A stretch of DNA of 64,000 bases from Candidatus Cloacimonadales bacterium (lineage in GTDB: Bacteria > Cloacimonadota > Cloacimonadia > Cloacimonadales > DAONDQ01): the NCBI GenBank assembly GCA_963662275.1, contig OY759316.1:1408001-1472000 (forward strand). Reading direction: 5' to 3'. This document shows positions 27,767 to 44,146 of this stretch, one piece after another (position 1 is the stretch's first letter; each line of letters opens with the position of its first letter). The notes under the pieces were generated by a model. The model saw only the letters and a program-made list of their open reading frames with translations. It searched no databases and was not told where the DNA came from. Position numbers and translations under genes: made by a program.

Positions 27767-28933
27767 TTACAATTTTTCCTGAAAAATTGTGATTAGCTTT
27801 TCCACCGCCATGCTTGCAGTAATATCCCCATTCAGAAGCTGCTTCTGAACATCCGGCAAGGATGTCTTTATCCCCGGATTCTGGTAAAAGCTAGCTTCTA
27901 AATATTCCTGGATCATCGATTTTACCCAATCTAATACTTGTGAATTTCGACGTTTTAAGAAGAAGCCATTTTTTTTCGTCACTTCCTTGAAATTCTCAAT
28001 CAGTGCCCAGATTTCAGGAATGCCTTCTTCCGTGAGAGCAGAGCAGGTATAGGCATCAGTTTTCCAGCCTATTGTGGCAGGAGTTAGGTAATGAAGGGCA
28101 TGAGCATATTCAGAACAAGCCCTTTTTGCGCTTTGTATATTATCACCATCCGCTTTATTCACGACGATAGCATCGGCAAGCTCAATCACACCTTTCTTGA
28201 TACCTTGCAGTTCATCTCCTGCACCGGGGATCTGTAAAAGGAGAAAGAAATCAACCATGGAACGCACGGTGATTTCACTCTGACCCACACCGACCGTCTC
28301 CACGAGGATTACATCATATCCTGCTGCTTCGCATAAAAGCATCGTTTCACGCGTTTTCTTCGTCACACCACCAAGGGTACCACCCGAAGGAGAAGGACGT
28401 ATAAAACAGTGCGGATCACGCGCTAAACGCTCCATACGGGTCTTATCACCAAGAATACTTCCATGCGTGATACTGCTGCTCGGATCAACGGCAAGAACTG
28501 CCACATTATGCCCTTGCGAAGTAAGATAAGAACCGAAAGTCTCTATAAATGTACTTTTACCAGCGCCGGGTACACCTGTAATGGCAATGCGAATAGAATT
28601 ACCTGCTTTGGGTAAGATGTTGCGAATCAGCTCCTGTGCCAGTACCTGGTGAGTATGGGAATTGCTTTCCACCAAGGTAATAGCCCTGGCAAGGATCATA
28701 GTATCCCTGTTCAAAATACCAGCGATATAATCATTTATCGTCAGTTTCTTTGGATGTTTTACTGGTCGTAGCGCTCGATCTCCGAGCGGGTTGGATTGTA
28801 GGTCTCGATCTCCGAGCGAGTTGGATTTAGAAGGTAACCCATCGTGGACAGATTCCACACCAGGCATGACAGTGGTTGTGAATTCACTACCTGCATTAGC
28901 AGGAGTCCATTCCGGCTTCTTACTCTTTGGCAT
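27767..28933 (-). CDS. meaB: Methylmalonyl-CoA mutase-associated GTPase MeaB
   Basis: GVPGAGKST, DPSS..GSILGDKTRM, ETVGVGQSE, NKAD. Confidence 0.95.
   Translation of the reverse strand: MPKSKKPEWTPANAGSEFTTTVMPGVESVHDGLPSKSNSLGDRDLQSNPLGDRALRPVKHPKKLTINDYIAGILNRDTMILARAITLVESNSHTHQVLAQELIRNILPKAGNSIRIAITGVPGAGKSTFIETFGSYLTSQGHNVAVLAVDPSSSITHGSILGDKTRMERLARDPHCFIRPSPSGGTLGGVTKKTRETMLLCEAAGYDVILVETVGVGQSEITVRSMVDFFLLLQIPGAGDELQGIKKGVIELADAIVVNKADGDNIQSAKRACSEYAHALHYLTPATIGWKTDAYTCSALTEEGIPEIWALIENFKEVTKKNGFFLKRRNSQVLDWVKSMIQEYLEASFYQNPGIKTSLPDVQKQLLNGDITASMAVEKLITIFQEKL
28768..28827 (+). repeat. Two 30-bp GTAG-footed REPs in frame within meaB
   Basis: gtagcgctcgatctccgagcgggttggatt and gtaggtctcgatctccgagcgagttggatt. 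Confidence 0.85.
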
Positions 28934-28953
28934 ATACCTTCCTTAGCTTTGAC

Positions 28954-29449
28954 TCCCCTCCCATTTGTAAAGGGAGGGGTCGGGGGAGAGCTAGTTCTTT
29001 ATATTTCCATCACATCATCAGGCTTTTCAATTAAACAATACAGATGTTCTAAAACCACATCCATATTTATCATTACATCAAAATTAGTAAATCTGATCAC
29101 CCTGATTCCGAGATTTTCAAAATACTCGGTTCTCTTGTGGTCATATTCCCTATTAGTTTCCTCAAAATGTTGACTTCCATCAAGTTCAATCACTATTTTC
29201 TTTTCCGGGCAACAGAAATCAGCAATATAATTTCCAATACCTTGTTGTCGATAGAATTTCAAATTCTGGAAGCGTTTATTCCGCAATCGCCCCCATAATT
29301 TCTTTTCTGCATCTGTCTTTTCTTTTCGTAGATGAATCCGGTTATCTTTTGTTGATTTTCGGTTTATTGTTTTCATTATGTCCTCCGAAAATATGCATCA
29401 GAGCAGAACTAGCTCTCCCCTAACCCCTCCCTTTACAAATGGGAGGGGA
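28954..29449 (-). mobile_element. DUF559 cassette bounded by 45-bp inverted repeats
   Basis: 28954-28998 vs 29405-29449 match 43/45 inverted; each contains hairpin CCCCTCCC-N9-GGGAGGGG plus a G-rich tail. Confidence 0.75.
28999..29376 (-). CDS. DUF559 (YcjD/Vsr-like) endonuclease-domain protein
   Basis: TDAEKKLWGRLR, KFYRQ, YIADF, IELDGSQH, GIRVIRFTN; GGAGG RBS. Confidence 0.92.
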   Translation of the reverse strand: MKTINRKSTKDNRIHLRKEKTDAEKKLWGRLRNKRFQNLKFYRQQGIGNYIADFCCPEKKIVIELDGSQHFEETNREYDHKRTEYFENLGIRVIRFTNFDVMINMDVVLEHLYCLIEKPDDVMEI

Positions 29450-29463
29450 ACCGGAAGAGAATC

Positions 29464-29522
29464 TCTGCAATTTTTAATTTTTAATTTCTGCCCCTGTTAC
29501 CTGTTACCTGTTACCTGTAACC
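29464..29522 (-). repeat. Heptamer arrays (TAACAGG)n and (AAAAATT)n overlapping the mutB stop
   Basis: cctgtta repeats encode QVTGNR and the TAA at 29497-29499; followed by gcaga-aattaaaaattaaaaatt-gcagag. Confidence 0.8.
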
Positions 29523-32025
29523 TTCTGCAAAGCTCGGTCATCATCACTTTAGCTGAATATGGCAGCACTGTTCCCGGTCCAAAGATGGCAGCAGCGCCGT
29601 GTTCTCTCAGGAATTCATAATCCTGGGCAGGAATCACTCCACCGACAACGACCATGATATCTTCTCTTCCCAACTTTTGAAGTTCTTCCATCAAAGCGGG
29701 GAGGAGGGTCTTATGTCCGGCTGCAAGGGAGCTCATACCTATAATATGCACATCATTCTCCACCGCTTGTTTGGCAGTTTCTTCCGGTGTCTGGAATAGC
29801 GGTCCGATATCCACATCGAATCCCATATCGGCGTAAGCAGTGGCAACGACCTTTGCCCCGCGGTCATGTCCGTCCTGACCCATCTTGGCGATGAGAATAC
29901 GCGGACGTCTTCCTTCCTCTTCAGCAAAAGCATCTGTCAAGGCACGGATTTCATCGAATTCAGACTTATTGGCATATTCGCTGCCATACACATTATTGAT
30001 GGTGCGAATTGTGGCTTTATGACGACCAAATATCTTTTCCATAGCGAACGATATCTCCCCTAATGTTGCCCTGGCTCGTGCTGCTTCAATGGAAAGCGCC
30101 AGGAGATTACCTTCACCTGTATCCGCAGCTTTGGTTATAGCTTCCAGACAGGCATCCACTTTAGATTGATCACGATTACTCTTTAATTCATGAAGCCGAC
30201 GTAATTGCGCTTCACGTACAGATGTATTATCAACTTCCAGGATTTCCATGGGTTGCTCTTTCTCTAAACGGTATTTATTCACACCGACGATCGTCTCGGC
30301 ACCGCTGTCTATATGTGCCTGGCGACGTGCAGCCGCTTCTTCAATTCTCATCTTGGGAAGTCCGGTTTCAATGGCTTTCGACATTCCGCCCAGTTCTTCC
30401 ACTTCCATAATATGATGCCAGCCACGTTTCATAATGGCATCGGTCAGGGCTTCCACATAATAAGAACCACCCCATGGATCCACGACTTTGCAGATACCCG
30501 TTTCATATTGAAGATACAACTGGGTGTTACGGGCAATACGAGCTGAGAAGTCTGTGGGAAGTGCGATGGCTTCATCCAGTGAATTGGTATGAAGTGACTG
30601 TGTATGTCCCAGCGTGGCAGCCAAAGCTTCCATGCAGGTACGGGTGATATTGTTGTAAGGATCCTGTTCTGTGAGGCTCCATCCTGAAGTTTGGGAATGA
30701 GTACGCAGAGCCATGGATTTCGGATCTTTCGGATTGAAATCTTTGATGAGCTTCGCCCAGATCACACGGGCAGCACGCAGCTTGGCGATTTCCATGAAGT
30801 AATTCATGCCTTCACCCCAGAAGAAGGAAAGACGAGGTGCGAAAGCATCGATGTCAATTCCTGCCTTGATTCCGGTACGAACGTATTCCAGTCCGTCAGC
30901 AAGCGTGTACGCCATTTCCAAATCAGCAGTTGCACCGGCTTCCTGCATATGATAACCGGAAATGCTGATGCTGTTGAACTTGGGCATATTCTTCGTCGTG
31001 AAACTGAATATATCCGCTATGATCTTCATGGAAGGTTCAGGCGGATAGATGTAGGTATTGCGCACCATGTATTCTTTTAAAATGTCATTTTGTATAGTTC
31101 CGATTAGTTTTTCCATGGAAACGCCCTGCTCTTCGGCAGCGACGATATAGAAGGCTAGTATTGGCAGCACTGCTCCGTTCATCGTCATGGAAACTGACAT
31201 CTGGTCTAAGGGAATGCCATCGAACAAGATCTTCATATCGAGGATGGAATCAATGGCTACACCCGCTTTACCCACGTCACCAATCACACGCGGATTGTCT
31301 GAATCATAGCCGCGATGTGTGGCAAGGTCGAAGGCAACGGACAAGCCTTTCTGTCCCATTGCAAGATTACGACGGTAGAAGGCATTCGATTCTTCTGCTG
31401 TGGAGAAGCCGGCATATTGTCGAATCGTCCAGGGCTTCTGGATGAACATGGAAGCATATGGTCCTCTCAGGAATGGCGGGATACCGGACATAAACTGCAA
31501 GTGCTGCAATACTTCCATATCCGCCTTCGTATAGAGCGGTTTCACATCTATCTGTTCATTCGTATGCCAGATAAGCTGATCGAATTTTTCCATCCTGTAC
31601 TTGAGCTGGGCAGCATCCTGCATACTCCAATGCATCAGTGTTTCATCAACTCCAGCATTAGCAAGATCTTCATCGAATTCAACTTCAAGTAGGGGAGACC
31701 CATGAGGCAATTCCTGCAATGCTGCTTTCTTCCATTCATTCAATGATTCATCTAATCCCCCCTTGGGGAGTGAATTGTCTAATCCCCCCTTGGGGAGTGA
31801 ATTGTCTAATCCCCCCTTGGGAAGTGAATTGTCTGCTCCCCCCTTGGGAAGTGAATTGTCTGCTCCCCCCTTGGGAAGTGAATTGTCTAATCCCCCCTTG
31901 GGAAGTGAATTGTCTAATCCCCCCTTGGGAAGGGGGGTAGGGGGGTCTATCCTCTCTGTCCTGTACGCTGTACGCTGTACGCTGTTCCCTTTTACCAACT
32001 CTATTTTCGTAAAGTCTGGTTTCAT
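29497..32025 (-). CDS. mutB: Methylmalonyl-CoA mutase large (catalytic, B12-binding) subunit with repeat-expanded N-terminus
   Basis: [23 protein letters not shown]12 motif [17 protein letters not shown]. Confidence 0.95.
31751..31990 (-). repeat. In-frame 27-bp tandem array (7x LPKGG) plus heptamer run in mutB
   Basis: Six units tctaatccccccttgggRagtgaattg (tgct variant in two), then the full hairpin copy ccccccttgggaaggggggtagggggg; (gctgtac)n at 31960-31990. Confidence 0.95.
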
Positions 32026-34160
32026 AACGCCACCCCCACTTTCTTCAAAACACGTGACAGAGTATCCACCACATCAGCACGAATATGAATGAATTCATCG
32101 ATACCCTGCGATTTGTAGGTTTCCACCATGTCTGTCGGATAACCAGCAAGAATGAGGCAGATATCCGATTTTGCTTTTCGAAGGAGCAGATCTATATGCG
32201 GAACAAGTTCCGGGTACATATCATCAGTAGCACAAATACAGACTGCTTCTGCACCTGATTCCAGGGCTGCTTTTACCGCATCTTCTACAGTCGCGAATCC
32301 CAACTCTTCAATGACTTTGAATCCGGCAGCAGAGAAGAATCCCTGGGCAAATTCAGCTCGAGCTTTATATTGGGCGATCGTTCCCATCGTTGCCAGGAAG
32401 ACAGCCGGACGCTTCCCTGCTGTATAAATATGACGTTCCACTGCAAGACGCATTGTTTCGTAAGGTTTGGAAAGCCTCGTAGGGGCGCATGGCAATACGC
32501 CCATCTGCTCTGCTTTATTTTCCATATTTTCGGGCGTATTGTCATGCGCCCCTACGCAATCATTCATGGGCGTACTTCCGCACGCCCCTACTAATATATC
32601 TTCATACGGATTGGCAAACATATTGGTACCCACAATCACATCCTTGCGGCTGCGAATATTTTTCTCACGCAGGGCAGCAATGGCTTTTATCTTATCATCT
32701 ATAAAATCATGTGCTTTACTCATTCCGCCTTTGCCTTCAATCTCCTGGAACAAAGCCCAGGCTTTTTCTGCGAGCTGGTTTGTCAGTGATTCAATGTACC
32801 AAGAACCACCGGCAGGATCTACAAGTGCATCGAGGTGAGTTTCTTCTTTTAAGATCAATTGCTGATTCCGGGCTATATGACGGGAGAATTCATCTCCTTC
32901 CCGAATCACAGAATCGAAGGCATCCACATGCAGGCTGTCTGTTCCGCCGAGAATGGCAGCAAACGCTTCAGTTGTAGAACGCAGGATATTTACATACGGA
33001 TCGAAAATTGTTTTATTATATTGTGAAGTTTTTGTATGCATCGTTATCTTCTGGGAATCGGTATGTCCGCCATAAGCTTTGACGATATTTGCCCACAAAT
33101 AGCGTGCAGCACGCAGCTTGGCAATTTCCATAAAGAAATTCGAGCCTATGCAAAACTCAAAGCGGATACGTGACGCAATATCATCTATCTTCATACCTCC
33201 ATCACCCAGGAGAGATATATGATGGTTACTCAATTCTTCAATCTTCTCTACGGCAATTGCAAAAGCTACCGCAAGTTCTTCCACAGCACTGGCACCACGA
33301 TTATGATAAACAGATGTATCCACGGAAATTGCATCCATCTTAGGGGCATGCTTCTTCATCCAATGCACGAACTGTAGCTTCGCTTGTAGCTCCGCCTTAA
33401 GACGGTTGTCTTTCTGCTCTGCCCTGTCATCTGACACCTGACACCCGACACCTGTGATGCTCCCTTCCACATCGTGAAGATTGATTCCATGCTTCTTGCA
33501 CCAATCCTGCAGCAACTCCGCAATCTTCAGCGGAACGCCATCGACCTTGAAATCGATCGCCACTGCTCTCAGGTCAATCCCCTCCAGCAATGCTTCCATA
33601 TCTTCTATCGTATTTAGTTGTAGCACTGCCTTCAGGCGGTTACCCTCTGCTCTGCTCTGCTCTGAAGCTCCCCCCTTGGGAAGTGAATTGTCTGCTCCCC
33701 CCTTGGGAAGGGGGGTAGGGGGGTCTATCTGCTCTGCCATTCTTAATTCTTCATTCTTAATTCTTAATTGCTCAGCAGCAGCAACTCTCACCGATACTCG
33801 ATCTAGCCCCCGCATCAATTCCTTTTTCAACACAGCATTCACTTGCTTTGGGTCGCTGCTGCTGGGAGCCTGCTGCGCTACGTCCCACGCTTTCACCACA
33901 TAACCTAAGGGATCCGTACCGCGAATGAATGAGTCAAAACCGGGCATGGAATCAGTATGTGGTAGATCGGCTGCATCTTCTTCCCGATAGATCGGCTGCA
34001 GATTGATGCCTTCATAAGTCGGAGTGATCATGGCTTTCTCAAATGGTACACCTTTCAATTGCGATTCAACAACTTTACGCCATTCTTCGTAGGAGGGAGG
34101 TGTAAAATCATCAGACAGCCGTAGCGGTTTTAAACCGGGCTGGTCAGTCGAATTTGACAT
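32022..34160 (-). CDS. mutA: Methylmalonyl-CoA mutase small (beta) subunit with several in-frame repeat inserts
   Basis: [27 protein letters not shown]; lacks DxHxxG; start placed at ATG 34160 after AGGAG. Confidence 0.92.
32479..32591. repeat. Three GTAGGGGCG..CGCCC REPs in frame within mutA
   Basis: 32479-32502 forward; 32532-32555 and 32568-32591 reverse. Confidence 0.9.
33386..33454. repeat. REP plus heptamer composite in frame within mutA
   Basis: gtagctccgccttaagacggtt, tctgctctgc, (ctgacac)n. Confidence 0.8.
33620..33770. repeat. Four-part composite repeat in frame within mutA
   Basis: REP gtagcactgccttcaggcggt; (ctctg)x4; LPKGG 27-mer plus hairpin; (aattctt)n. Confidence 0.9.
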
Positions 34161-34418
34161 ATCAATATCTCCTGGAGTTTTTTGGGTAAACTTGATATGC
34201 CTGTTGATTGATGTCAATAATAAAACGGAACGCCGATTTCTTATCGGCGTGCGAGGTGAATTCTTTTCGCTTCTCTTCTCCGAAACGATAAGATATAAAC
34301 TTATTCTAAATCGATGTAAGTCTAGAATCTTGAGTACTATTTGCGAAAATAATGCAAATATCTTGACAAAAATACGGAAACGCATATCTTTTATATGTAT
34401 GTATTCATGGAGGTCAAC

Positions 34419-35690
34419 ATGCTTTTAGAATTCAGAGTTTCTAATTTCCGTTCCTTTTCAGAGGAAGTAGTATTCAGTATGGTTGCTGGTCCTTATAATG
34501 AACTGCCTGATAACACTTTTACAGTAGGGAAATTCACATTATTAAAAACGGCAGCTATCTATGGTGCTAATGCAAGCGGGAAAACAAATCTCATAAAAGC
34601 ATGGAGTTTCTTTAGAGAATTTGTGAAAGAATCTCATAAGGAAATGGATACTCCAAATAGGCAACCTTTTGCTTATAATTCAGAACCCTCAACTATTCCA
34701 ACAACTATGGAAGCAACTCTGCGAATAGATGGGGTTCGATATTGTTATGGCTTTTCATTAGATGATGAAGGAGTCTTAGAAGAACATCTGTTTTCTTATC
34801 CCGTTGGAGTTAAACGAACTCTCATAAAACGCGACAGAAATACACAAATAAAGACATGGATCAATCAGATTGAATTCAAAGAAGGACGTGGCATCGAGTC
34901 CAAAGTACGGGACAAAGCACTATTTCTTTCTGTAACTGCGCAATTCAATGGAGCCATTGCAACAAATGTAATAAAGGGAATTTTAAATGCTATAACTTTG
35001 TACCCTAGCGCAAGTATTACTTCATTATCACTCTCTGTATTTAAACCGGAAAGAATCGATCATGAAAAAACCAGAGAATTTTTAAAATTAGCTGATTCAG
35101 GCATTGATAACTTCAAGTATGATAAGATTGTAGTAAATGATGAACAAAAGTCATCTCGTAGTATGTCATTTAGAGTAAGGGGAAAAGCAGATGGATCGAC
35201 TGAACTCACACAAGAAACTGTAAGCACATATCATAAAAATAATAATGATGAATCAGTAATATTCTCCATGGATGATAATGAGTCAAGAGGAACACAGCGT
35301 ATTTTTGTGCTCTCCTCTCCGATTATTGACGCTTTAAAAGAAGGTTCCGTATTATTCATAGATGAGATAGAAAGTAGTCTGCATCCCTTATTGGCTCAAA
35401 CACTGGTCCAGATGTTTAATTCACCGGTTACAAATCCCAATAACGCACAACTTATATTCACAACACATGATACAAATTTATTGAACCCTGAGCTAATGAG
35501 AAGAGATCAGATCTGGTTTACTGAAAAATCGGAGCATAATAGCACTGACCTGTATTCTTTGTTAGAATTTAAGGGAGTCAGGAAAGAGGCATTCAGCGAT
35601 AAGAAGTATTTAGGAGGTAAGTATGGCGGAATTCCATTCTTATCCATTCATACCTTGGATAAATTTACATCCTCTAAGGTTAGTGAATAA
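34419..35690 (+). CDS. AAA_21-type ABC ATPase (RloA/AbiLi-like)
   Basis: YGANASGKTN, ESRGT, FIDEIESSLHP, QLIFTTHD, RRDQIWF, YLGGKYGG; start ATG 34419 after GGAGG. Confidence 0.9.
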   Translation: MLLEFRVSNFRSFSEEVVFSMVAGPYNELPDNTFTVGKFTLLKTAAIYGANASGKTNLIKAWSFFREFVKESHKEMDTPNRQPFAYNSEPSTIPTTMEATLRIDGVRYCYGFSLDDEGVLEEHLFSYPVGVKRTLIKRDRNTQIKTWINQIEFKEGRGIESKVRDKALFLSVTAQFNGAIATNVIKGILNAITLYPSASITSLSLSVFKPERIDHEKTREFLKLADSGIDNFKYDKIVVNDEQKSSRSMSFRVRGKADGSTELTQETVSTYHKNNNDESVIFSMDDNESRGTQRIFVLSSPIIDALKEGSVLFIDEIESSLHPLLAQTLVQMFNSPVTNPNNAQLIFTTHDTNLLNPELMRRDQIWFTEKSEHNSTDLYSLLEFKGVRKEAFSDKKYLGGKYGGIPFLSIHTLDKFTSSKVSE

Positions 35691-36307
35691 TGAAAAGGCA
35701 ATTGGGAGGGCTGAAACGGAAAACGGAGAGCCGTTATTTTAGGAAGAAAATACTGATTATTTGTTGCGGAGTGCAAACAGAGCCAAATTACTTCAGAGGC
35801 TTTCCTATTCCTCCAGAATATAACGTTGTTATTAACTCTGATGCTGTCGATTCTCTAAATATGGCTAAGAATGCAATTCAAATTATGAAAACGGAAATGA
35901 AGCGATCTTTTGCTTTTACCGAATGTTGGGTAGTATTCGATAAAGATAGCTTTCTGAATGATAATTTCGATAATGCTATCTGGATCATTGAAAAGAATAA
36001 ACTTCATGTTGCATACTCAAACCAGTGCTTTGAATTATGGTACCTTTTACATTTTGAGTTGTTACAATCTAGCCTGAATCGTTCAGATTATTGGACAAAA
36101 GTTACTACATACTTAGGAACAGTGAAATACCAGAAGAATTCTACAGATATGTATGATAGGTTGAAAGACAATCAGGAATATGCAATCAAAAATGCTGAAA
36201 AACTGTTAGAACAACATGAAGGAAAAACCTGTGCTAAAGCCGATCCTTCAACAACTGTGCATTTGCTTGTTCAGCGTTTGAATACGTTGTGGAAGGCACA
36301 AGTATAA
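35690..36307 (+). CDS. rloB: RloB family protein (AbiLii-like, TOPRIM-related)
   Basis: TEPNYF, WVVFDKD, SNQCFELWYLLHF, DPSTTV; overlaps the ATPase stop. Confidence 0.88.
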   Translation: MKRQLGGLKRKTESRYFRKKILIICCGVQTEPNYFRGFPIPPEYNVVINSDAVDSLNMAKNAIQIMKTEMKRSFAFTECWVVFDKDSFLNDNFDNAIWIIEKNKLHVAYSNQCFELWYLLHFELLQSSLNRSDYWTKVTTYLGTVKYQKNSTDMYDRLKDNQEYAIKNAEKLLEQHEGKTCAKADPSTTVHLLVQRLNTLWKAQV

Positions 36308-41059: not shown

Positions 41060-42929
41060 GTACGATAGTGATAGATAGAAATCGGATGGGTGCAAGTCCC
41101 ATTTCAGGCTACGTCATGCCTGGTAGTCTATGTAACTGCTTCATCGTGAGATGGGGTGGGGAGTAACAAATGACGAAACAGCAGTCCGTAGGATAACGAA
41201 CTCGATTCGGCAGGATACAATGTCGAGCTTGCTAGCCTTAAGCGAAGACCAAAATCTTCTGGAATGATGCACTTCGGGTGAACCGGAGTTTCCCCCGGAA
41301 GATGGCAGACAGGCTGAGATGACGTGCAAAAGCCATGTACTGATTGTATCAAGTGACTGGAGACGGAATGTTGTGAAGGTTTCTATCTCAAGCTATGAGA
41401 CCTGCTGATGGGAAGAGACATCAGCAGGAGTCAGAGTGTTCATAGTAGCGATGATATTCAGGACACTATAACCTGAAAGTAGCGAAGGGGCACAGGAAAA
41501 TGAATTTTGAAAGGAGTATTGATGGAAGATCAACGTTCATTATTGCCGAAAACGGCTAAACAAGAACGAGAAATCCCTCCGCAATGGAGTTGGGTGGAAC
41601 CGTCAGTATGGTCTGACAAAATGTTGGCAGCGCTCGAAATGGGCGTCAAAGGTGGAAAATGGTTCAGTCTGATAGACAAGGTATATGCCATGGCAAACCT
41701 TGCATCAGCTTGGAAACACGTGGCATCCAACAGAGGTAGTGCCGGTATCGACAATGTCAGCATCCAGCACTACAAAAGACATGCGCTGGCAAGATTAGTA
41801 CGAACCTCCGAACTGTTGCAAAAGGAAGCGTATCAACCCAATGGAATCAAACGTGTCTGGATAGATAAACCGGGCAGTAAGGAAAAGAGACCTTTGGGCA
41901 TACCGACCGTCACGGACAGAGTAGTACAAACAGCACTGCGCAATGTAATCGAACCGATATTTGAACAGGGATTTGCCGAACACAGTTATGGCTTTCGTCC
42001 CAAACGCGACTGCAAAGATGCTTTAAGACAAGTCGATGGACTTCTCAAGCAGGGATACGTCTTTGTTGTGGATGCAGACCTGAAAGGATACTTTGACAGT
42101 ATACCGCAGGACAAGCTGATGAAGCGTGTAGGAGAAAAGATAGCAGACGGGAAAGTTCTGAATCTTATCAATGACTATTTGAATCAAAAAGTAATGGATA
42201 CAACGTCAACCTGGACACCGGAAACGGGAACACCTCAGGGAGCAGTTATCAGTCCATTACTGGCAAACATTTATCTGAATCCTCTGGACTGGCTTATGGC
42301 AGGCAAAGGCTATAGAATGATACGCTATGCGGATGATTTTGTAGTCATGTGTCAAAGTCGAGAGGAAGCAGAAATGGCTTTATGTACAATAGGCGAATGG
42401 GTTGAAAAAGCAGGTCTGGTTTTGCATCCTGAAAAGACTAAAATACTGGACGCAGAAACGGAAGCGGTGGAATTTTTAGGATACCACTTCTTCAAGGGTA
42501 AAAGATACCCCAGACAGAAGAGTATCAACAAGTTCAAAGACAGCATCCGTAAATGTACCGGACGCAGTAATGCCCACAGCTTACAAACCATAATAGCTAA
42601 AATCAAGCCGATTCAAAGAGGTTGGTTCGAGTATTACAAACACTGTTACAAAACAGTCTTTCCTAACTTGGATGGCTGGGTAAGACACAGGCTACGCAGT
42701 ATCCTCAGAAAGAGGAAAAAGCGCTATGGTATTGCCACAGGAAAAGACAATATCAGGTATCCAAATTACATCTTTGATAATGCTGGGTTTTTCTCATTAA
42801 CCAAAGCCCATCAGGAATTATGTCAATCTCTTAAATGAGAACTCGTTTTCTGGAGAGCCGTATGCGGGAGAACCGCACGTACGGTTCGGAGGGAGGGGAG
42901 CCAGTAATGGATTACTCCCCTACCCCTAT
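41060..42929 (+). mobile_element. Group II intron (1870 nt) inserted in a REP
   Basis: Starts GTACG, ends CCCCTAT; DV gagccgtatgcgggagaaccgcacgtacggttc at 42855-42887 and DVI; removal restores tatgggcta|tcatcttgcatc as in the uninterrupted copy at 40978-40998. Confidence 0.92.
41522..42838 (+). CDS. ltrA: Group II intron reverse transcriptase/maturase without endonuclease domain
   Basis: RPLGIPTVTDR, SYGFRP, DADLKGYFD, GTPQGAVISPLLANIYL, RYADD, FLGY, GWFEYY; ATG 41522 after AAGGAG. Confidence 0.95.
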   Translation: MEDQRSLLPKTAKQEREIPPQWSWVEPSVWSDKMLAALEMGVKGGKWFSLIDKVYAMANLASAWKHVASNRGSAGIDNVSIQHYKRHALARLVRTSELLQKEAYQPNGIKRVWIDKPGSKEKRPLGIPTVTDRVVQTALRNVIEPIFEQGFAEHSYGFRPKRDCKDALRQVDGLLKQGYVFVVDADLKGYFDSIPQDKLMKRVGEKIADGKVLNLINDYLNQKVMDTTSTWTPETGTPQGAVISPLLANIYLNPLDWLMAGKGYRMIRYADDFVVMCQSREEAEMALCTIGEWVEKAGLVLHPEKTKILDAETEAVEFLGYHFFKGKRYPRQKSINKFKDSIRKCTGRSNAHSLQTIIAKIKPIQRGWFEYYKHCYKTVFPNLDGWVRHRLRSILRKRKKRYGIATGKDNIRYPNYIFDNAGFFSLTKAHQELCQSLK

Positions 42930-42969: not shown

Positions 42970-43413
42970 TCATGAATTATGATCATTTATTACCGGATAT
43001 CCATGGGCAATTAAGAATTTGTTGAATTCTTCCTGATAATCGATCTTTTTGTGATGTTCTTCCTGGTTTTGAATGTACTCTTTCACTTGAGGGATATTGG
43101 ATTTGCTAACGCTGAAAATGCCATATCCAATTTGCCAATGAAATTCGCCTTCATATGTTTCATGCATCCATTTGCTTGAATTAGCCTTGATTGTTCTAAT
43201 AAAATCAGAAATACCCATGTCTTTTGGAAGAAGAGCCAGGATGTGGACATGATCTTCGGTGCCATTCATTTGAATGACCTTACCTTGAACGTTACGGATA
43301 ATTCCGGTTATATATTCAAAAAGACGAGTTCGGACTTCCTGATTGAGCCAAGGGTTGCGGTTTTTGGTTGTAAATATGATGTGTGCAGCTACATGAAAAT
43401 ATGAATGCGGCAT
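42970..43413 (-). CDS. tnpA: IS200/IS605-superfamily Y1 HUH transposase, probably REP-associated
   Basis: HIIFTTK, DHVH, IKANSS, WQIGY, YIQNQ; REP modules on both sides; no tnpB. Confidence 0.9.
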   Translation of the reverse strand: MPHSYFHVAAHIIFTTKNRNPWLNQEVRTRLFEYITGIIRNVQGKVIQMNGTEDHVHILALLPKDMGISDFIRTIKANSSKWMHETYEGEFHWQIGYGIFSVSKSNIPQVKEYIQNQEEHHKKIDYQEEFNKFLIAHGYPVINDHNS

Positions 43414-43491: not shown

Positions 43492-43935
43492 AGATGATAG
43501 CCATAGCGTTGTACATGTTTGCCAGATGATAGCCCATAGCGTAAGCTATGGGACGGCGAGTAGATTTTTTTAAACATTTGTGCCAGATAATAGCCCATAG
43601 CGTAAGCTATGGGGAAGGAATTCAATGATTTTGCACACGTTGTGTGCCAGATGATAGCCCATAGCGTAAGCTATGGGAAAGGGATTCAATGATTTTTAAC
43701 ACGTTGTGTGTTAGATGATAGCCCATAGCGTAAGCTATGGGGATACGTTGAATGGGAAATGTTGATAACGAGGTGTCACCCCGACGTGGTTTATATTGTT
43801 TTCGATTCAATTGATCCCCCCATCCACCCATAATTTACATTATGGGCTATCATCTTTCATCCGTGCGGATTTGGACGGTATTGTTCATTCATTGATCCAC
43901 CCATAATTTACATTATGGGCTATCATCTGGCATCC
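43492..43935. repeat. Right REP module of tnpA locus
   Basis: Four full and one partial forward REP, then two inverted variants cccataatttacattatgggctatcatct. Confidence 0.9.
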
Positions 43936-44146
43936 TTGTGGGATTTAAATTTAACAGGATATCGTAACCTGCTTACTCAATAGTGGCAATGACAGGATAT
44001 TTGAACGGAGTTAAGAATAACAGACTTTACTCAATTCATCGGGCTGAAGAATCAATCTATAAGCCTATCCAGAAAAATCTGATTGACACGAAAACTGAAT
44101 CAATGATAAGCGAACTAGAAGAAAATATTACTATTATGGAGGATTT

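What the first reader, a model, noticed from the sequence alone, without database searches (positions are those of the whole stretch)
27767..34160. The mutase operon is a hotspot of in-frame invasion by several unrelated repeat families
Seen: at least five internal in-frame insert sites (meaB 28768; mutB 31751; mutA 32479, 33386, 33620) plus a repeat-derived mutB C-terminus, all within 6.4 kb. They come from GTAG-REPs, G/C hairpins and heptamer arrays; frames and catalytic motifs are intact. Among the roughly 45 other genes I found only one comparable insert (NFACT). Known: Rickettsia palindromic elements insert in frame into proteins. Inference: either repeat delivery is locally targeted or these loops tolerate and accumulate mosaic peptides.
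Basis: partly seen in the sequence, partly recalled or inferred. Interest (0 to 1): 0.8.

Follow-up and report, generated by a model that had tools for sequence, protein, structure and literature searches.

The report
Repeat cassettes translated inside mutase operon
The three genes of a vitamin-B12 mutase operon in a repeat-rich Cloacimonadota bacterium carry translated pieces of normally intergenic selfish DNA, more than any other gene in the genome, most likely because the non-catalytic subunit and floppy protein tails tolerate them.

Summary
All five listed sites and the repeat-made mutB 3' end are real and in frame. Orthologs lack this sequence. Independent contigs from four runs (two studies) reproduce three of the sites without a difference.

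In a genome-wide test, intergenic-type repeats cover 29.7% of intergenic DNA but 0.38% of genic DNA. mutA ranks first of 2936 predicted genes, and its 6.4-kb window ranks first in the genome. The phenomenon is not confined to the operon: 51 to 110 genes carry such repeats, among them mutL, polA and ppx.

The families are linked rather than unrelated. Each mutA site is a cassette of heptamer array, then GCAGAGCAGA, then a REP or hairpin. The same cassette normally sits just after stop codons.

Two "inserts" are replacements of native sequence. The same-genus relative carries different repeats at the same sites and shares one orthologous array, which includes a stop-avoiding mutation.

Best reading: tolerance plus accretion at already colonised, unconstrained sites. 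These are the vestigial active-site loops and linker of the non-catalytic MutA and the N-terminal tails of MutB and MeaB. Special targeting is less likely.

This is a known kind of event (RPE, intragenic REPs), and the scan has seen it in other genomes. Here it is an unusually dense case.

The parts
32022..34163 (-). mutA, the non-catalytic beta subunit of methylmalonyl-CoA mutase (713 aa). About 116 residues are repeat-derived.
   Evidence: Pfam MM_CoA_mutase only, with no B12-binding match. The start matches the G001 ortholog (MSNSTDQP...). Repeat-derived DNA is 349 of 2139 nt.
33618..33770 (-). mutA site 1. Read on the coding strand: heptamer AATTAAG x4.4, then GCAGAGCAGA, then a G/C hairpin, one 27-nt unit, (CAGAG)n and a GTAG REP.
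   Evidence: The segment is 56 aa against a median of 25 (range 6-26) in 38 homologs. The heptamer-plus-junction part is orthologous in G001. It corresponds to the loop and strand after the 'GLSVAF' strand of MutB.
33373..33454 (-). mutA site 2: heptamer CAGGTGT x4.6, then GCAGAGCAGA, then a GTAG REP. It replaces a native segment of fixed length.
   Evidence: The segment is 28 aa against 29 aa in all 38 homologs. It follows the equivalent of the MutB 'GTIQN' motif. Contigs of X1, X3 and X5 cover it with 0 differences.
33189..33233 (-). mutA site 4: a 15-aa segment ([15 protein letters not shown]) where all other homologs have 7 aa. No repeat is recognisable in it now.
   Evidence: At the same place G001 has 13 aa that are still readable as heptamers plus GCAGAGCAGA.
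32479..32592 (-). mutA site 3: three GTAG REPs (GTAGGGGCG...ACGCCC type) around a GCAGAGCAGA junction. They form most of the linker between the barrel and the C-terminal domain.
   Evidence: The linker is 48 aa against a median of 91 (range 33-166) in homologs and 22 in the G001-like protein. M. tuberculosis MutA has almost no sequence there. Contigs of X1, X3 and X5 cover the whole site with 0 differences; the listed X4 piece begins inside it, at 32546.
29497..32025 (-). mutB, the catalytic alpha subunit (842 aa). The catalytic part is intact.
   Evidence: 1REQ_A aligns over query 152-832 at E=0. Pfam finds mutase plus B12-binding domains.
31750..31986 (-). mutB N-terminal repeat block (aa 14-92): heptamer ACAGCGT x3.6, a junction, a G/C hairpin, then the 27-nt unit x6.7, which encodes (L/A)DNSLPKGG.
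   Evidence: It is absent from 10 relatives. The insertion point, after 'MKP.F..I.L..G', is the same in G001, but the content differs.
31606..31719 (-). mutB extra 38-aa segment (LQELPHG...QDAAQ) with no counterpart in relatives. Its origin is unresolved.
   Evidence: Alignment with 10 relatives. It was not marked as repeat.
29469..29523 (-). mutB 3' end: the last codons (QVTGNR) and the stop codon come from the heptamer array CAGGTAA. An AATTAAA array and a GCAGAG junction follow.
28952..29449 (-). DUF559 (Vsr-like nuclease) gene 28999-29376 between inverted C/G-rich hairpin repeats (28952-28999 and 29398-29449). It is a cassette inserted between mutB and meaB.
   Evidence: Pfam DUF559 at E=1.9e-35. 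The hairpins fold at -9.2 and -12.7 kcal/mol. No DUF559-sized ORF lies in the G001 spacer. 5 of 5 DUF559 genes examined in this genome are flanked the same way.
27767..28933 (-). meaB, the G-protein chaperone of the mutase (388 aa).
   Evidence: Pfam MeaB at E=5e-108. Solved homologs align from query residue 64 onward.
28768..28827 (+). meaB REP dimer (GTAG orientation on the + strand). It is translated as part of SNSLGDRDLQSNPLGDRALR in the N-terminal tail.
   Evidence: This REP has no other copy in the genome at E<=1e-3. It lies upstream of the part covered by solved structures. Contigs of X1 and X3 cover it with 0 differences.

Best explanation
The genome is saturated with small selfish repeats. 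They include GTAG REPs (15 Y1/RAYT-like genes are present), C/G-rich hairpins that bracket DUF559 nuclease genes, and heptamer arrays. They occur as composite cassettes of heptamer array, then GCAGAG(CAGA), then a hairpin or REP, and these normally start a few bases after a gene's stop codon.

Rarely a cassette lands or is copied inside a gene. Selection keeps only versions that are in frame, free of stops and located where the protein does not care.

The mutase operon offers unusually many such places:
- MutA is the non-catalytic paralog of MutB. The loops that line the active site in MutB, and the inter-domain linker, have no job in MutA.
- The N-terminal tails of MutB and MeaB lie outside the conserved folds.

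Once a site is colonised it grows and turns over. The likely routes are slippage, nested insertion and local copying between mutA and mutB, sometimes with loss of native residues. The operon therefore accumulated mosaics over a time longer than the split of the two known species of the genus.

Shown here: the anatomy, the enrichment, the absence from orthologs, the reuse of sites in the sister species, and the filter against stop codons. Inferred: that the inserts are neutral or tolerated, and the molecular route of insertion and replacement.
For: (1) Enrichment.
- Repeats cover 29.7% of intergenic DNA and 0.38% of genic DNA.
- mutA holds 6 of the 142 intragenic segments, rank 1 of 2936 genes.
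- Under strict rules it holds 5 of 68 segments, and its 6.4-kb window is the top one.
- It has 3 of 56 merged sites and is the only gene with 3.

(2) The sites are unconstrained.
- Site 1 and site 3 lie in length-variable segments.
- Sites 1 and 2 align to the '[15 protein letters not shown]' loop and the segment after 'GTIQN' of the catalytic paralog.
- The MeaB insert lies before residue 64, where the solved structures begin.
- The MutB block lies in the N-terminal arm, which is short in 10 relatives.
- MutA is the fastest-evolving of the three proteins: 64/58% identity between G000 and G001, against 92% for MutB and 79% for MeaB. The same ranking holds for G003 against G022 (54, 83 and 66%).
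- G001 MutA has even lost about 130 aa of the barrel.

(3) Site reuse and accretion.
- G001 has other repeats at the MutB insertion point, and repeats at MutA site 4.
- It shares an orthologous AATTAAG array at site 1.
- In Ppx/GppA an ancestral heptamer array grew in G000 by a hairpin plus inverted heptamers.
- The 27-nt unit variant occurs 7 of 7 times inside the operon.

(4) Selection filter.
- 17 of 21 intragenic heptamer arrays have a stop-free unit on the coding strand, against 315 of 682 strand-orientations between genes (Fisher P=0.0017).
- The AATTAAG array carries AATGAAG exactly where TAA would fall in frame, in both species.

(5) No sign of special delivery.
- Co-oriented and head-on genes carry 34 and 34 segments, at 0.017 and 0.022 per kb.
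- In the flanks, 21% and 38% of intergenic bases are repeat, against 30% genome-wide.

(6) The assembly is sound. Contigs of runs from two studies match with 0 differences across the meaB site and mutA sites 2 and 3.
Against: - Host genes are GC-richer than other genes after masking repeats (41.0 against 39.1%, P=8e-6). Site density rises from 0.17 to 4.96 per 100 kb from the lowest GC quintile to the top 5%. mutB and mutA sit at the 99.6th and 96th percentiles. This could reflect a delivery bias and not tolerance.
- The 10 kb to the right of the operon holds 14 repeat segments, where about 4 are expected (8.6 per 20 kb on average). It also holds a DDE transposase, a group II intron and a Y1 transposase gene.
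- All 14 sense copies of the G/C hairpin inside genes use one reading frame, which tolerance alone does not predict. However, 8 of them are one paralog family, and one of the other two frames is closed by a TAG in many copies.
- The number of independent events is small, so the site-level statistic is modest (P=0.018).
- My gene calls are a home-made ORF model.
- No structure model could be made, so 'surface loop' is inferred from alignments only.
- There are no RNA or protein data.
Confidence: 0.65

Rival explanations
1. Delivery is locally biased. The cassettes or their enzymes (RAYT-like Y1 transposases, DUF559 nucleases) insert preferentially into GC-rich and probably highly transcribed DNA, or near existing mobile elements. 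The GC-rich mutase operon, next to a mobile-element-rich stretch, therefore receives more hits.
For: - Intragenic site density rises about 30-fold from the lowest GC quintile to the top 5% of genes. mutB is at the 99.6th GC percentile.
- The right flank has 14 repeat segments in 10 kb, plus a transposase, a group II intron and a Y1 transposase at 42970-43413.
- A DUF559 cassette landed inside the operon.
Against: - No difference between leading-strand and lagging-strand genes.
- The left flank is repeat-poor, and the repeat fractions of both flanks bracket the genome mean.
- The REP array beside the nearby Y1 gene (43516-43743) is a different family from the REPs in the operon.
- The sites coincide with unconstrained segments and are re-used in G001.
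- GC-rich decayed repeats could themselves raise host-gene GC.
Confidence: 0.2
2. The intragenic cassettes have been recruited for a function. As DNA or RNA hairpins they might tune mRNA stability, processing or translation speed inside the operon and so set subunit ratios. As peptides they might serve as spacers or interaction arms.
For: - The site 1 heptamer array and junction are conserved between the two species, including the stop-avoiding change.
- Cassettes of the same build normally sit right after stop codons, median 8 nt, where REPs are thought to act on transcripts (Di Nocera 2013, passages read).
- One reading frame is used by 14 of 14 sense hairpin copies.
Against: - Content turns over between species at the MutB site and at MutA site 4, and G001 deleted the region that holds site 2.
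- The meaB REP is absent from G001.
- Promoter-like and terminator-like matches in the operon are at chance level: 13 against 13.4, and 7 against 5.9.
- The same elements sit in unrelated genes.
Confidence: 0.08
3. Artefact: an assembly chimera, or decaying pseudogenes that are no longer translated.
For: High-copy repeats break short-read contigs at the 27-nt array and at the G/C hairpins, so the copy number of the array is not independently confirmed.
Against: - Contigs from X1 and X3 (two studies), and pieces from X4 and X5, reproduce the meaB site and mutA sites 2 and 3 with 0 differences.
- All frames are open across about 116 + 79 + 20 repeat-coded codons.
- Stops have been mutated away.
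- MutB is 92% identical to its G001 ortholog.
Confidence: 0.03

Closest known systems
Rickettsia palindromic elements (RPE; Ogata et al. 2000). Recalled, and as summarised in PMC3733652 and PMC3184786 (passages read).
   Same: A dispersed palindromic repeat family is inserted in frame into genes that still look functional. It is read as extra peptide segments and is absent from orthologs.
   Different: Here several linked module types (heptamer arrays, GTAG REPs, C/G hairpins) form the inserts. The host is a free-living or syntrophic Cloacimonadota lineage rather than an obligate intracellular bacterium. Some inserts replace native residues instead of adding to them. One operon carries at least six sites.
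Intragenic GTAG/CGTC REPs (Di Nocera, De Gregorio, Rocco 2013, PMC3733652; abstract and passages read).
   Same: GTAG-tagged REPs, singly or as dimers, encode 20-30 aa inside known genes. Some genes are hit at two sites (the uvrA genes of O. terrae). Hosts include PolA, helicases and repair genes, and here too polA, mutL and a DEAD/MrfA-type helicase are hosts. That paper also proposes location in flexible linkers or loops.
   Different: The densest host here is a metabolic operon, not a repair gene. The REPs come with heptamer arrays and a conserved GCAGAGCAGA junction, which the passages I read do not mention.
Heptamer tandem repeats of cyanobacteria (STRR, recalled) and TAACTGA repeats of Beggiatoaceae, cyanobacteria and Bacteroidetes (MacGregor 2015, PMC4679880; abstract and passages read).
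   Same: Abundant, mostly intergenic tandem arrays with a period of exactly 7. Period 7 is the commonest period in this genome, with 592 arrays.
   Different: Many different heptamer units are used here. The arrays mostly follow stop codons rather than precede start codons. They are joined to GCAGAG and hairpins. Some are translated.
DUF559 (Vsr-like) nuclease cassettes with hairpin-bearing inverted repeats and gene-less miniature copies. Noted 63 times by this scan in other genomes. I found no paper describing them (search listing only).
   Same: The operon's DUF559 gene sits between inverted C/G hairpins. 5 of 5 DUF559 genes examined in this genome do likewise. The G/C hairpin translated in mutA and mutB is the repeat type that brackets the seven DUF559 copies at 3.581-3.588 Mb.
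   Different: In mutA and mutB only solitary hairpins, without the nuclease gene, are translated.

Membership tests
In-frame intragenic palindromic repeats (RPE / intragenic REP kind) | The inserted sequence belongs to a dispersed repeat family that is mainly intergenic. | tested here: met
   Positions matched by 3 or more distinct intergenic loci cover 29.7% of intergenic and 0.38% of genic DNA. All listed sites except the meaB REP are so marked.
In-frame intragenic palindromic repeats (RPE / intragenic REP kind) | The host reading frame stays open and the host gene's own domains stay intact. | tested here: met
   ORFs; Pfam; MutB against 1REQ_A; MeaB against solved chains.
In-frame intragenic palindromic repeats (RPE / intragenic REP kind) | Orthologs lack the segment. 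| tested here: met
   Alignments with 11 order-level relatives and 39 database homologs. At site 2 the orthologs have a different, native 29-aa segment.
In-frame intragenic palindromic repeats (RPE / intragenic REP kind) | The inserts lie in surface loops or linkers of the folded protein. | tested here: inconclusive
   This was inferred only from length-variable segments and from alignment to MutB and solved chains.
GTAG REP with RAYT (REPtron) | A short imperfect palindrome tagged by GTAG at one end. | tested here: met
   The sequences begin with GTAG. Seven REP copies were folded and gave energies of -2.9 to -8.1 kcal/mol and z-scores of -0.7 to -3.3, so some fold weakly as DNA.
GTAG REP with RAYT (REPtron) | A cognate RAYT (Y1 transposase) gene flanked by the same REPs. 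| tested here: inconclusive
   The genome has 15 Y1_Tnp matches. I did not link the operon's four REP types to a particular gene. The REP array beside the Y1 gene in the window is a different type.
DUF559 hairpin-ended cassette | A DUF559 nuclease-fold gene between inverted hairpin repeats, with gene-less copies of the repeat elsewhere. | tested here: met
   Pfam. Inverted repeats flank 5 of 5 genes examined, out of 11 matches. The related hairpin has 96 copies in G000, 6 in G001 and 0 in 29 other genomes of the order.
Methylmalonyl-CoA mutase alpha-beta heterodimer with MeaB | The alpha subunit has a mutase barrel plus a B12 domain with DxHxxG. The beta subunit is a paralog without the B12 motif. 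A MeaB GTPase is encoded alongside. | tested here: met
   Pfam. The MutB sequence shows DGHDRG, and MutA has no such motif at the aligned place. PDB matches. Enzyme activity was not tested.

The most novel reading that the evidence does not exclude
The unit of heptamer array, GCAGAGCAGA and hairpin or REP may be one undescribed composite mobile or self-copying cassette. In this reading it homes to earlier copies and to GC-rich transcribed DNA, and it can overwrite native coding sequence with patches of matching length. The non-catalytic mutase subunit would then be undergoing progressive rebuilding from selfish DNA, and the operon would act as a self-reinforcing landing pad rather than a passive dumping ground.
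Probability: 0.15. Interest if true: 0.6.

Novelty: new member of a known kind. Interest (0 to 1): 0.38.

Why it matters
This case shows how far a working enzyme complex can be loaded with translated selfish DNA. About one sixth of MutA, an 80-residue arm of MutB and a stretch of MeaB are repeat-coded. It also shows that the load follows the map of functional constraint. The vestigial active-site loops of a non-catalytic paralog are the preferred sites.

The case offers three things for further work:
- A natural experiment on which parts of the mutase beta subunit are dispensable.
- A clean example of site reuse, accretion and stop-codon avoidance.
- A genome in which three repeat systems (RAYT/REP, DUF559/hairpin, heptamer arrays) can be studied together.

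It does not point to a new kind of biological system.

Tried and rejected
No model, fold search or surface mapping was possible.
- The k-mer mask with 12-mers gave false positives in AT-rich words. I replaced it with the BLAST-depth test.
- GTAG-anchored hairpin energy as a REP detector was only 2- to 6-fold above control tetramers, which is too unspecific, so I dropped it.
- A scan of metagenome contigs for close MutA relatives gave 115 pattern matches, none confirmed.
- No RNA holder was listed among the public runs, so nothing can be said on expression.
- Contigs do not bridge the 27-nt array or the G/C hairpins, so the array's copy number is unverified.
- Replication-strand bias: none found.
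- Promoter and terminator consensus scan: chance level.
- The Rfam gathering scan of the window found nothing inside the operon.
- Papers holding 'Cloacimonas', 'repeats' and 'palindromic' together: 0 hits. The search for 'DUF559' with 'repeat' gave no listed paper on such cassettes (listing only).
Full report
**Setting.** The window is G000:C1:1408001-1472000 of a closed 4.38-Mb genome with 39% G+C. The nearest database homolog of its MutA is named as from a Candidatus Cloacimonadota bacterium. All 31 genomes searched (G000 and 30 relatives) carry the mutase genes.

On the minus strand lie mutA (32022-34163), mutB (29497-32025, whose start overlaps the mutA stop as ATGA), a DUF559 gene (28999-29376) and meaB (27767-28933). 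MutB matches the Propionibacterium alpha chain 1REQ_A over residues 152-832 at E=0 and shows the DGHDRG cobalamin motif. MutA has the mutase barrel only. MeaB matches solved MeaB/MMAA chains from residue 64 onward.

**The observation.**
- In meaB, two 30-nt GTAG REPs (28768-28827) are read in the N-terminal tail.
- In mutB, residues 14-92 are coded by a heptamer array, a C/G-rich hairpin and a 27-nt unit repeated 6.7 times (31750-31986). The last codons and the stop codon of mutB come from another heptamer array (29493-29523).
- In mutA, three blocks (33618-33770, 33373-33454, 32479-32592) are built from heptamer arrays, GTAG REPs and the same hairpin.

Orthologs from 11 genomes of the order and 39 database homologs lack these sequences. 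Short-read contigs from runs of two studies reproduce the meaB site and mutA sites 2 and 3 with no difference. The contigs break only at the high-copy hairpin and the 27-nt array, so an assembly chimera is not the explanation. The copy number of the array remains unverified.

**Corrections to the anatomy.** Segment lengths between conserved anchors in 40 MutA sequences:

| MutA site | G000 | G001-like protein | The other 38 homologs | Reading |
|---|---|---|---|---|
| Site 1 | 56 aa | 17 aa | median 25 (6-26) | net gain |
| Site 2 | 28 aa | 0 (region deleted) | 29 in all 38 | replacement |
| Site 3 (linker) | 48 aa | 22 aa | median 91 (33-166) | repeats fill a shortened linker |
| Site 4 (33189-33233) | 15 aa | 13 aa | 7 in all 38 | older gain |

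At site 4 the G001 sequence is still readable as heptamers plus GCAGAGCAGA. MutB also has a 38-residue segment (31606-31719) with no counterpart in 10 relatives and no recognisable source. About 349 nt, roughly 116 of 713 MutA residues, are repeat DNA.

**The families are linked.** The 10-mer GCAGAGCAGA occurs 72 times against about 4 expected. 54 copies are intergenic. Four places lie in mutA, one in each of sites 2 and 3 and two in site 1.
- GCAGAG lies within 15 nt of one end of 75 of 446 heptamer arrays, against 3 in shifted controls.
- 97 of 140 intergenic heptamer-to-GCAGA cassettes follow a co-directional gene, beginning a median 8 nt after its stop codon.

So the mutA blocks are copies of the genome's usual 3'-end cassette (heptamer array, junction, hairpin or REP) placed inside a gene in the sense direction.

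The C/G hairpin (consensus around CCCCCCTACCCCCCTTC) has 96 copies here, 6 in the sister species and none in 29 other genomes of the order. It is the repeat that brackets the tandem DUF559 genes at 3.58 Mb. All 5 DUF559 genes I examined, of 11 matches, lie between inverted hairpins of this build, including the one between mutB and meaB. The genome also has 15 Y1-transposase matches, which fits its many REP types.

**Is the operon a hotspot?** I called genes with a simple ORF and codon-usage model (2936 genes covering 86% of the genome). I marked every position matched by at least three distinct intergenic loci. Such repeats cover 29.7% of intergenic DNA and 0.38% of genic DNA.

Of 2039 segments, 1587 are intergenic, 310 overlap a gene end and 142 lie inside 110 genes. 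mutA is first with 6, one of which lies in the over-extended 5' part of the ORF.

Under strict rules (at least 150 nt from the ORF start, at least 30 nt from its end, gene at least 600 nt), 68 segments remain in 51 genes. mutA has 5, and its 6.4-kb window is the best in the genome. Merging neighbours gives 56 sites. mutA alone has 3, and three other genes have 2. Random placement by gene length gives P=0.018 for a maximum of 3 or more.

The mutB block (too near the start for the strict rule) and the meaB REP (unique in the genome) come on top. So the hotspot is real, but it rests on few independent events.

The phenomenon is genome-wide. Other hosts include mutL, polA, a DEAD/MrfA-type helicase, ppx/gppA, two radical-SAM genes, an integrase and Mu-like prophage genes.

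**Why here?**
- The sites map to unconstrained parts. Aligned to its catalytic paralog, MutA site 1 replaces the loop that in MutB reads [15 protein letters not shown] and runs into the next strand. Site 2 follows the equivalent of GTIQN. From memory of the Propionibacterium structure, these segments line the substrate channel of the alpha chain and have no such role in the beta chain.
- Site 3 is the inter-domain linker. The MeaB and MutB blocks lie in N-terminal tails.
- MutA evolves fastest of the three proteins in two independent species pairs. The sister species has deleted about 130 residues of its barrel.
- The sister species re-uses the same places. It has the same MutB insertion point with other repeats, and repeats at MutA site 4. 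At site 1 it has an orthologous AATTAAG array that shares the T-to-G change turning an in-frame TAA into GAA.
- Ppx/GppA shows the same course. A heptamer array is shared by both species, and G000 has enlarged it with a hairpin and inverted heptamers.
- The 27-nt unit variant occurs only in mutA and mutB (7 of 7), which points to local copying.
- Selection against stops is visible. 17 of 21 intragenic heptamer arrays have stop-free units on the coding strand, against 315 of 682 strand-orientations between genes (P=0.0017).

**Evidence for a delivery bias is weaker but not nil.** Host genes are GC-richer, and site density rises about 30-fold across GC classes. mutB and mutA are among the most GC-rich genes. 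The right flank is rich in repeats and mobile genes. Against targeting, there is no replication-strand effect. The repeat fractions of the flanks bracket the genome mean. The nearby Y1 gene has a different REP type.

A regulatory role is not supported by the consensus scans or by Rfam, and the repeat content turns over between species.

**Comparison and novelty.** In-frame palindromic repeats are known from Rickettsia (RPE). GTAG/CGTC REPs inside genes are also known, including genes hit at two sites and hosts such as PolA and helicases (PMC3733652, abstract and passages read; PMC3184786, passages). Heptamer arrays are known from cyanobacteria and Beggiatoaceae (PMC4679880, passages).

This scan has already reported translated heptamer/REP mosaics in other genomes. 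Those notes include linker replacement, mutated stops and sister species with other mosaics at the same spot. It has also noted DUF559 hairpin cassettes 63 times.

The present case is a dense new member of a known kind. Its own points of interest are:
- the concentration on one metabolic operon;
- the match between insert sites and the vestigial active-site loops of a non-catalytic paralog;
- the linkage of three repeat systems into one cassette.

**Limits.** There is no structure model and no RNA or protein evidence. The gene calls are home-made, and only one sister species was available.

Noticed in passing
G000:C1:3580965-3588093 (outside the window): Seven tandem DUF559 gene copies. From the match coordinates, each lies between an upstream reverse copy and a downstream forward copy of the CCCCCCTACCCCCCTTC hairpin; I inspected the flanks of two of them. 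The same hairpin has 96 copies in this genome, 6 in the sister species and none in 29 other genomes of the order.
   Followed up: partly
window 42970-43413 (-) and 43516-43743: A Y1 (IS200/RAYT-like) transposase gene beside a 64-nt repeat x3.6 with a CCCATAGC...GCTATGGG hairpin, about 9 kb from mutA. This is a different repeat type from the REPs in the operon.
   Followed up: partly
window 41507-42929: A group II intron reverse transcriptase/maturase ORF (RVT_1, GIIM), followed by an Rfam group II intron domain match (RF00029, 42853-42929). An Acido-Lenti-1 RNA match lies at 43900-43945.
   Followed up: no
window 34395-36304: An AAA_21 (AbiEii-like ATPase) plus RloB gene pair directly upstream of mutA on the other strand. 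This may be a defence-type pair.
   Followed up: no
G000:C1:2744221-2746520 (L026): One open frame joins a formyltransferase domain (aa 3-185) to a MiaB/RimO-like radical-SAM protein (aa 332-645) through a 414-nt repeat block. It may be two genes fused by read-through of an intergenic cassette, or an artefact of my ORF model.
   Followed up: no
G000:C1, eight paralogs of about 549 aa (for example 2891775-2893421 and 515006-516652): A paralog family carries the same G/C hairpin at the same place (about nt 1436), read as TV(D/T)[14 protein letters not shown] translated repeat has therefore been multiplied along with its host gene.
   Followed up: no
whole genome: Period 7 is the commonest tandem-repeat period (592 arrays) and uses many different units. 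Period 11 comes next (313 arrays). I did not examine the 11-mers.
   Followed up: partly
window 31914-31948 and 33692-33726: The hairpin-plus-27-nt module lies in the same orientation and the same reading frame in mutB and mutA, 1.8 kb apart. Recombination between the two copies would give an in-frame MutA-MutB fusion. No contig showed such a joint.
   Followed up: partly
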